Positions 33,939-33,955 of a stretch of 64,000 nt of DNA are shown here, piece by piece (position 1 is the first letter of the stretch; every line of letters starts with the position of its first letter). Under the pieces are notes generated by a model. The model was not told where the DNA came from, searched no databases, and saw only the letters and a list, made by a program, of their open reading frames with translations. The DNA lies in assembly GCF_057098645.1 (NCBI RefSeq), contig NZ_CM169472.1, one strand, 5' to 3'. The translations under genes and the position numbers were made by a program.

Positions 33939-33955
33939 AAGGAAAACGGTTGCGT
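33939..33955. promoter_or_regulatory. Candidate PurR box upstream of purEK
   Basis: aaggaaaacggttgcgt resembles the reverse complement of the PurR consensus ACGCAAACGTTTTCTT, with 2 mismatches. Confidence 0.4.

What the first reader, a model, noticed from the sequence alone, without database searches (positions are those of the whole stretch)
33939..33955. PurR-box-like sequence upstream of purEK
aaggaaaacggttgcgt resembles the reverse complement of the PurR operator consensus with 2 mismatches, located in the purE 5' region.
Basis: partly seen in the sequence, partly recalled or inferred. Interest (0 to 1): 0.2.

Follow-up and report, generated by a model that had tools for sequence, protein, structure and literature searches.

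The report
Known PurR operator of purEK

Summary
The window is E. coli O145:H28 chromosome. The 16-mer at 33940-33955 (+ strand AGGAAAACGGTTGCGT; purE-sense ACGCAACCGTTTTCCT) lies 72 nt upstream of the purE ATG (33868, minus strand).

A PurR weight matrix built from 27 other ChIP-supported sites scores it 19.45 bits. That is the best hit in the 64 kb, with 0.022 expected by chance.

The identical 16-mer, at the matching K-12 coordinate, is listed as the PurR motif in the ChIP-chip-bound purE-purK region (Cho et al. 2011). It is also among the RegulonDB PurR sites. Published gel-shift assays show PurR binding the purE promoter, enhanced by guanine or hypoxanthine.

The box is conserved upstream of purE in 29 of 29 Enterobacterales loci outside the insect or tick symbionts, 2 of 2 Vibrio and 4 of 6 Pasteurellaceae. 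It is absent in alphaproteobacteria, Firmicutes and two insect symbionts whose purE upstream could be placed (a tick symbiont keeps a degenerate remnant). A conserved extended -10 element follows at a fixed 16-nt spacing, so the box covers the -35 position. That fits repression by promoter occlusion.

Verdict: observation confirmed, interpretation supported, already known, low interest. Side observation: a PurR-like 16-mer inside folD codons 8-13 is unusually conserved at synonymous sites.

The parts
33940..33955 (-). PurR operator (PUR box) of the purEK operon. It reads ACGCAACCGTTTTCCT in the purE sense and has a central CpG at box positions 8-9.
   Evidence: Leave-one-out PWM of 19.45 bits, top hit of the window. 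Identical 16-mer in the ChIP-chip table and in the RegulonDB site list. Mean information content of 1.88 of 2 bits across 30 Enterobacterales sequences. Invariant in the sampled E. coli lineages and in E. albertii.
33941..33946 (-). Inferred -35 position of the purEK promoter (TTTTCC, 3 of 6 matches to TTGACA, 17-bp spacer). It lies entirely inside the PurR box.
   Evidence: Inferred from the fixed 16-nt spacing between the box and the conserved -10 element. The simple sigma-70 scan finds no promoter because the -35 is weak.
33918..33926 (-). Inferred extended -10 element TGcTATTCT (TG at 33926-33925, hexamer TATTCT at 33923-33918).
   Evidence: Conserved at a fixed distance from the box in 30 Enterobacterales sequences. 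Consensus CaTGcTATtcTCT, with mean information content of 1.64 bits over the hexamer.
33909..33913 (-). Approximate transcription start of purEK.
   Evidence: Inferred as 5-9 nt downstream of the -10 hexamer. My recollection of Tiedeman et al. 1989 (start 41 nt upstream of the ATG, which is 33909) could not be checked because the paper is not held. No start site was found in the held supplements.
33880..33884 (-). Shine-Dalgarno sequence AGGAG of purE.
   Evidence: Read directly from the sequence. The CACAGGAG motif is conserved upstream of the ATG in most Enterobacterales loci.
33359..33868 (-). purE coding sequence (N5-CAIR mutase), first gene of the regulated operon.
   Evidence: ORF list and RefSeq annotation of the identical O145 record and of K-12.
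32295..33362 (-). purK coding sequence (N5-CAIR synthase), second gene. It overlaps the purE stop codon by 4 nt.

Best explanation
Window 33940-33955 is the operator of the E. coli purEK operon for PurR, the LacI-family purine repressor. When hypoxanthine or guanine is abundant, the PurR dimer carrying its corepressor binds this 16-bp imperfect palindrome. The box covers the -35 position of a promoter that relies on an extended -10 element (TGnTATTCT, 16 nt downstream of the box). Bound PurR therefore keeps RNA polymerase off the promoter and lowers transcription of purE and purK. When purines run low, PurR releases the site and the operon is expressed. Shown here or in retrieved papers: sequence identity with the published site, in vivo occupancy that rises with adenine, in vitro binding enhanced by guanine or hypoxanthine, derepression of purE and purK in a purR mutant of Yersinia pestis, and deep conservation of the box. 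Inferred: the exact -35, -10 and start-site assignment, and therefore promoter occlusion as the mode of repression.
For: The PWM built without the purE site scores 19.45 bits, the top hit of the window, with 0.022 expected by chance. Cho et al. 2011 (PMC3159470) Table 1 lists a purE-purK ChIP-chip region with log2 enrichment of 2.08 with adenine and 0.86 without, and gives the motif AGGAAAACGGTTGCGT at 552395-552410, which corresponds to the same 16-mer in NC_000913.3. That paper also names purEK among the genes repressed by PurR-hypoxanthine. The 16-mer is among the 15 RegulonDB PurR sites listed in PMC2585596 Table 2. Gel-shift assays show PurR binding a purE promoter fragment, enhanced by guanine or hypoxanthine and no longer enhanced in a ligand-pocket mutant (PMC12858057). 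In Yersinia pestis there is a gel shift on the purE-purK promoter, and purE and purK rise by log2 3.0-3.8 in a purR deletion (PMC10673613). For the footprint, a box of at least 17.4 bits is present upstream of purE in 29 of 29 Enterobacterales loci outside the insect or tick symbionts. Boxes of at least 15.5 bits are present in 2 of 2 Vibrio and 4 of 6 Pasteurellaceae loci. No alphaproteobacterial or Firmicute locus exceeds 12.5 bits, and the background 99th percentile is 12.2 bits. When sequences are anchored on the box, information content is 1.88 bits in the box, 0.21 bits in the 45 nt upstream and 1.64 bits in the -10 hexamer at fixed spacing. In E. coli lineages that carry an extra ORF between lpxH and purE, homology breaks 1-3 nt upstream of the box while the box and everything downstream stay identical.
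Against: There is no direct evidence against it. Some gaps remain. The original footprinting and operator-mutation papers (He et al. 1990; Tiedeman et al. 1989; Watanabe et al. 1989) are not held, so base-level protection was not verified here. The retrieved gel shifts used promoter fragments, not the isolated 16-mer. The transcription start was not found in any held dataset, and the generic sigma-70 scan finds no promoter, so the overlap with the -35 rests on the conserved extended -10 element.
Confidence: 0.96

Rival explanations
1. The match is a chance resemblance to the PurR consensus with no regulatory role.
For: A search with the perfect palindrome and up to 3 mismatches gives 1 hit against 0.68 expected, so the match is not significant by that criterion alone.
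Against: The PWM expectation is 0.022 per window. The 16-mer is nearly invariant across about 30 genera while the adjacent intergenic sequence is not conserved. Published ChIP-chip and gel-shift data place PurR on this region.
Confidence: 0.01
2. The conserved block is simply the -35 and upstream part of the purEK promoter, conserved for RNA polymerase binding, and PurR is incidental.
For: The inferred -35 position lies inside the box, and the spacing to the -10 element is fixed.
Against: Conservation covers all 16 positions, including the 9 nt upstream of the -35 hexamer, and it follows the PurR palindrome with its central CpG. The -35 itself is a poor match (3 of 6). In Vibrio and Pasteurellaceae the box keeps the PurR pattern at a different distance from the ATG, with variants that still follow the PWM. 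The box is missing in the two insect symbionts whose purE upstream could be placed, and in taxa outside the PurR-bearing orders, although they still need a purE promoter.
Confidence: 0.02
3. The site is mainly the target of another LacI-family regulator with a similar half-site, such as RbsR or CytR, rather than PurR.
For: LacI-family operators share a palindromic layout with a central CG. From memory, RbsR has been reported to bind a pur promoter (purHD).
Against: The matrix that scores the site highly was built only from PurR ChIP-bound sites. PurR ChIP enrichment at this locus rises with adenine. Purified PurR shifts the promoter fragment in a guanine- or hypoxanthine-dependent way. Deletion of purR derepresses purE and purK in Y. 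pestis.
Confidence: 0.01

Closest known systems
The E. coli K-12 purEK PurR operator as catalogued in RegulonDB and in Cho et al. 2011
   Same: The 16-mer is identical, the whole intergenic region is identical, and the position relative to purE is the same. It is the same element in another E. coli strain.
   Different: Nothing apart from the host strain (O145:H28 rather than K-12).
PurR operators of purF, purT, purL, purMN and purHD (promoter-overlapping PUR boxes)
   Same: They share the 16-bp palindromic pattern with a central CpG, their leave-one-out scores fall in the same range (17-25 bits), and they repress by overlapping the promoter (Cho et al. 2011, section 14).
   Different: The purE box has C instead of A at position 7 of the proximal half and AGGA instead of ACGC in the distal half, which puts it in the middle of the score ranking (13th of 28). 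Here the promoter appears to rely on an extended -10 element with a weak -35.
Intragenic PurR operators of purB and purR (transcriptional roadblock)
   Same: Same repressor and same box pattern.
   Different: Those sites lie inside coding sequence and block elongation (citing He and Zalkin 1992). The purE site lies upstream of the start site at the -35 position. The folD candidate noted in passing would resemble this class.
Bacillus and Firmicute PurR with PurBox elements upstream of purE
   Same: Same gene name and the same physiological logic: repression of the purine operon, whose first gene is purE.
   Different: It is an unrelated protein (PRT-type fold, PRPP and ppGpp ligands) that recognises a different, bipartite DNA element (PMC8789054, abstract; PMC10912719). 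The Firmicute loci here have no enterobacterial-type box.

Membership tests
PurR (LacI/GalR-family) operator, or PUR box, of the gammaproteobacterial purine regulon | A 16-bp imperfect palindrome matching ACGCAAACGTTTGCGT with a central CpG, scoring within the range of validated sites. | tested here: met
   Leave-one-out PWM of 19.45 bits, 13th of 28 known sites, p=1.7e-7. The central CG is at box positions 8-9.
PurR (LacI/GalR-family) operator, or PUR box, of the gammaproteobacterial purine regulon | Located in the control region of a purine or nucleotide metabolism transcription unit. | tested here: met
   The box is 72-87 nt upstream of the purE ATG, in the 117-bp lpxH-purE intergenic region, and overlaps the inferred -35.
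PurR (LacI/GalR-family) operator, or PUR box, of the gammaproteobacterial purine regulon | Occupied by PurR in vivo, with occupancy rising when purines are supplied. | tested here: met
   No experiment was done here. I checked the sequence and coordinates against the published ChIP-chip table: purE-purK region, log2 enrichment 2.08 with adenine and 0.86 without, identical motif.
PurR (LacI/GalR-family) operator, or PUR box, of the gammaproteobacterial purine regulon | Bound by purified PurR in vitro in a manner dependent on the corepressor (hypoxanthine or guanine). | tested here: inconclusive
   Published gel shifts show this for a purE promoter fragment (PMC12858057; Y. pestis), but the fragment boundaries and base-level footprint were not available. 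The original footprinting papers are not held.
PurR (LacI/GalR-family) operator, or PUR box, of the gammaproteobacterial purine regulon | The target genes are derepressed when purR is deleted. | tested here: met
   From the literature only. Cho et al. 2011 name purEK among the genes repressed by PurR-hypoxanthine. In Y. pestis, deleting purR raises purE by log2 3.1-3.8 and purK by log2 3.0-3.6.
PurR (LacI/GalR-family) operator, or PUR box, of the gammaproteobacterial purine regulon | Conserved upstream of orthologous genes in lineages that use this PurR, and absent outside them. | tested here: met
   Present in 29 of 29 Enterobacterales loci outside the insect or tick symbionts, 2 of 2 Vibrio and 4 of 6 Pasteurellaceae. 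Absent in alphaproteobacteria, Firmicutes, other gammaproteobacteria and two insect symbionts whose purE upstream could be placed; degenerate at 8.0 bits in Ca. Pantoea persica. Whether purR itself is present in each genome was not checked.
PurR (LacI/GalR-family) operator, or PUR box, of the gammaproteobacterial purine regulon | Mutations in the operator abolish repression. | not testable with these tools
   This needs reporter genetics. No held paper reporting it for purE was found.

The most novel reading that the evidence does not exclude
The purEK operator may have a second role as a roadblock. The lpxH stop codon is only 30 nt upstream of the box, and no intrinsic terminator is detected between them. 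PurR bound here could therefore also stop read-through transcription from the ppiB-lpxH unit from entering purEK, as PurR does inside purB. That would make purEK repression independent of which promoter the polymerase came from. The precise deletion or insertion breakpoint 1-3 nt upstream of the box in different E. coli lineages shows that the box is the outermost retained element, which fits this reading but does not require it.
Probability: 0.12. Interest if true: 0.25.

Novelty: already known. Interest (0 to 1): 0.06.

Why it matters
It matters little as a discovery. The purEK PUR box has been part of the textbook E. coli purine regulon since about 1989-1990 and is catalogued in RegulonDB. 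The result is useful as a calibration point, because a tool-free reader correctly recognised a real operator from sequence alone. The cross-genus footprint also gives a clean, independent picture of the control region: the box, a fixed 16-nt spacer and an extended -10 element. The only mildly forward-looking item is the side observation that folD carries a PurR-like box inside codons 8-13 that is conserved at synonymous sites. The E. coli ChIP-chip study did not report it.

Tried and rejected
1. A perfect-palindrome search with up to 3 mismatches gave 1 hit against 0.68 expected, so I rejected it as a significance test and used a PWM instead.
2. The generic sigma-70 promoter scan of 33700-34200 found no promoter. 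This is explained by the weak -35 and the extended -10, so I did not take it as evidence against a promoter.
3. I tried to read the original papers (Watanabe 1989 PMC209573, Tiedeman 1989 PMC209574, He 1990 PMC213288 / PMID 2198266). None is held.
4. I looked for a mapped purE transcription start in the supplement to Cho 2011 (none held), the Cappable-seq supplement and the Shigella TSS supplement. Nothing was found.
5. PMC9189660 had nothing relevant to purE.
6. An Rfam scan of the intergenic region and flanks gave only a noise hit (IS009, 12.6 bits against a gathering score of 117). I rejected the idea of a known leader RNA or riboswitch.
7. My first related-loci run failed because I had the purE ATG one base off (33869 instead of 33868). 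I corrected it.
8. Other PWM hits of 8-12.5 bits in the window lie inside a YadA-like adhesin gene, a prophage tape-measure gene and allantoin genes. I treated them as chance matches.

Full report
WHAT IS THERE

The window matches the E. coli O145:H28 chromosome at 100% identity (for example NZ_CP028379). The local gene order is ybcF (+), purK, purE, lpxH and ppiB (all -), cysS (+), then ybcI, ybcJ and folD (all -). The purE CDS runs from 33868 down to 33359 on the minus strand. I first misplaced the ATG by one base and corrected it. The lpxH stop codon ends at 33986, which leaves a 117-bp intergenic region.

The flagged string aaggaaaacggttgcgt is at 33939-33955 as stated. The functional unit is the 16-mer at 33940-33955. 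In the purE sense it reads ACGCAACCGTTTTCCT, and its near edge is 72 nt upstream of the purE ATG.

IS IT MORE THAN CHANCE?

A search with the perfect palindrome ACGCAAACGTTTGCGT and up to 3 mismatches finds only this site. However, 0.68 such hits are expected per window, so that test alone is not significant.

I built a log-odds matrix from the 27 other PurR sites in Table 1 of Cho et al. 2011, leaving the purE site out. With this matrix the site scores 19.45 bits. It is the best of all positions on both strands. The per-position p-value is 1.7e-7 and 0.022 hits are expected per window. It ranks 13th of 28 when each known site is scored leave-one-out.

The mismatch count depends on the consensus. 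It is 2 against ACGNAAACGTTTGCNT read on the + strand and 3 against the perfect palindrome.

IDENTITY WITH THE PUBLISHED OPERATOR

Cho et al. 2011 (PMC3159470), Table 1, lists a ChIP-chip PurR-bound region for purE-purK. Its log2 enrichment is 2.08 with adenine and 0.86 without. The motif given is AGGAAAACGGTTGCGT at 552395-552410. Adding the 777-bp offset between the two K-12 sequence versions gives 553172-553187. That is exactly where the 16-mer sits in NC_000913.3 (L001 3173-3188). The offset is from my own knowledge of the two versions, but it agrees with the purE coordinates.

The K-12 and O145 intergenic regions are identical. The same 16-mer is one of the 15 RegulonDB PurR sites listed in PMC2585596 Table 2. 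RefSeq records do not annotate the site as a feature.

BINDING AND REGULATION IN THE LITERATURE

- Purified PurR shifts a purE promoter fragment. Guanine or hypoxanthine enhances binding, and a ligand-pocket mutant loses that enhancement (PMC12858057).
- In Yersinia pestis, PurR shifts the purE-purK promoter, and deleting purR raises purE and purK by log2 3.0-3.8 (PMC10673613).
- A PurR site upstream of purE-purK is also predicted in Haemophilus influenzae (PMC3739930 Table 1).
- The general mechanism is summarised in PMC10912719 and in Cho et al. section 14: a LacI-family dimer, hypoxanthine or guanine as corepressor, and boxes that overlap promoters.
- The original 1989-1990 papers are not held.

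INDEPENDENT TEST BY COMPARATIVE GENOMICS

I fetched 80 purE loci, one genome per species, and scored the 250 nt upstream of each purE with the same leave-one-out matrix.

- All 29 Enterobacterales loci outside the insect or tick symbionts have a box of at least 17.4 bits. They range from Escherichia through Citrobacter, Klebsiella, Pantoea, Erwinia, Serratia, Yersinia, Pectobacterium, Photorhabdus and Providencia to Arsenophonus. Most carry the identical 16-mer.
- Both Vibrio loci score 21.5 and 25.2 bits.
- Four of six Pasteurellaceae loci score 15.5-18.9 bits.
- No alphaproteobacterial locus exceeds 7.3 bits and no Firmicute locus exceeds 12.5 bits. Other gammaproteobacteria (Marinobacterium, Psychrosphaera, Bowmanella) have no box.
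- Two reduced-genome insect symbionts of the Pantoea group (L023 and L029) have no box. For the third, Ca. Pantoea edessiphila (L047), the purE match begins at residue 15 and its true start lies about 140 bp upstream of the assumed ATG, so the scanned window was mostly coding sequence and that locus is uninformative. The tick symbiont Ca. Pantoea persica (L012) retains a degenerate box of 8.0 bits. This would fit loss of the repressor, but I could not check for purR in those genomes.
- The 99th percentile of 3,391 background 250-nt windows from the same loci is 12.2 bits.

When 30 Enterobacterales sequences are anchored on the box, mean information content is 1.88 of 2 bits inside the box and 0.21 bits in the 45 nt upstream of it. 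Exactly 16 nt downstream of the box there is a second conserved block, CaTGcTATtcTCT.

PROMOTER ANATOMY AND MECHANISM

The second conserved block reads as an extended -10 element. The TG is at 33926-33925 and the hexamer TATTCT at 33923-33918. With a 17-bp spacer, the -35 position falls at 33946-33941 (TTTTCC, 3 of 6 matches), entirely inside the PurR box. The weak -35 explains why the generic promoter scan found nothing.

The transcription start should lie near 33909-33913. My recollection that Tiedeman et al. mapped it 41 nt upstream of the ATG (33909) would place the box at about -46 to -31, but I could not verify this.

The best-supported mechanism is therefore promoter occlusion. PurR carrying its corepressor sits on the -35 region and excludes RNA polymerase. 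Binding and repression are shown by the evidence above. The occlusion step is inferred from geometry. No known RNA family matches the leader.

WITHIN-SPECIES VARIATION

The intergenic region is found in 5,425 of 5,426 complete E. coli genomes. A 30-mer centred on the box is exact in 4,217 genomes, against 3,450 for the adjacent 30-mer.

The genomes that fail the exact-match test mostly belong to lineages such as IHE3034 (the B2 phylogroup label is from my own knowledge), in which an extra ORF of about 330 bp lies between lpxH and purE. E. albertii shares that sequence upstream of the box, though no annotation was retrieved for it. In these genomes, homology to the window breaks 1-3 nt upstream of the box, while the box, promoter and leader remain identical. 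The box is therefore the distal boundary of the conserved control region.

RIVALS

- Chance match. Excluded by the PWM statistics, the conservation and the published binding data.
- Conserved only as promoter. Unlikely, because conservation covers the full palindrome, including the 9 nt upstream of a poor -35. The PurR pattern also persists at different distances from the ATG in Vibrio and Pasteurellaceae.
- Another LacI-family regulator. Not supported by the purine-dependent PurR ChIP and gel shifts, or by the purR-deletion data.

COMPARISON AND NOVELTY

This is the same element as the K-12 purEK operator, present in another E. coli strain. It belongs to the promoter-overlapping class of PUR boxes (purF, purT, purL, purMN, purHD). 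It differs from the intragenic roadblock operators of purB and purR. It is unrelated to the Firmicute PurR and PurBox system despite the shared name. It is already known, and interest is low.

SIDE OBSERVATION

The second-best PWM hit in the window is 38473-38488 on the minus strand, GGTAAAACGATTGCGC, at 15.4 bits with 0.31 expected by chance. It lies inside folD, covering codons 8-12 and the first base of codon 13.

I compared 11 Enterobacterales folD sequences (E. coli plus 10 loci; all insect symbionts excluded, but the tick symbiont Ca. Pantoea persica, L012, included). The five codons in the box keep the same codon in at least 10 of 11 species. For 66 other codons with an invariant amino acid and degenerate positions, the mean major-codon frequency is 0.61 (Mann-Whitney p=3e-4). 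It is the only five-codon run with that level of conservation in the first 120 codons. The site decays in the three insect-symbiont folD loci (L023, L029, L047); L023 and L029 are the two that also lack the purE box.

folD is a predicted PurR target in H. influenzae, where the site is upstream of the gene. It is not among the ChIP-chip regions in E. coli. Caveats: the sample is small and the sequences are related; the 5' ends of coding sequences carry constraints of their own.

Noticed in passing
window 38473-38488 (minus strand), inside folD (CDS 37643-38509): The second-best PurR PWM hit, GGTAAAACGATTGCGC (15.4 bits), covers folD codons 8-12 and the first base of codon 13 (G-K-T-I-A-Q). All five synonymous third positions are kept in at least 10 of 11 Enterobacterales sequences (insect symbionts excluded), against a mean major-codon frequency of 0.61 elsewhere in the gene (p=3e-4). 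The site decays in the three insect-symbiont loci, two of which also lack the purE box. It could be an intragenic PurR operator like the one in purB. folD is a predicted PurR target in H. influenzae but is absent from the E. coli ChIP-chip list.
   Followed up: partly
window 33956-33985 compared with L083 (IHE3034) 246-391, L084 and L003 (E. albertii): About 1,000 E. coli genomes, typified by strains such as IHE3034, carry an extra ORF of about 330 bp (hypothetical protein WP_001188438.1) between lpxH and purE; E. albertii shares the same sequence upstream of the box, though its ORF was not annotated here. The window and K-12 lack it. The breakpoint of this insertion or deletion is 1-3 nt upstream of the PurR box.
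   Followed up: partly
window 33909-33917 (minus strand), just downstream of the -10 element: The segment after the -10 hexamer (TCTgtGCCCTC) is conserved across Enterobacterales at a fixed distance. It may be a GC-rich discriminator or start-site region with its own regulatory meaning, for example growth-rate or stringent control. I did not examine it further.
   Followed up: no
window 33956-33990 (minus strand), between the lpxH stop codon and the PurR box: No intrinsic terminator is detected in the 30 nt between the lpxH stop codon and the box, so transcription from ppiB-lpxH may read through into purEK unless it is stopped by Rho or by bound PurR.
   Followed up: no
window 45440-64000: Downstream of fimZ and a tRNA-Arg gene there is a truncated integrase, an IS3-family transposase and a lambdoid prophage remnant at the DLP12 position. 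It includes essD, rrrD, rzpD, iss, nohD, a terminase and head and tail genes running to the end of the window. It is unrelated to the finding.
   Followed up: no
window 11051-31000: The allantoin (purine catabolism) cluster, including the ybbY uracil/xanthine transporter gene, lies just upstream of purK. It has no PurR PWM hit above 10 bits, so the PurR box at purE is the only strong intergenic site in the window.
   Followed up: partly
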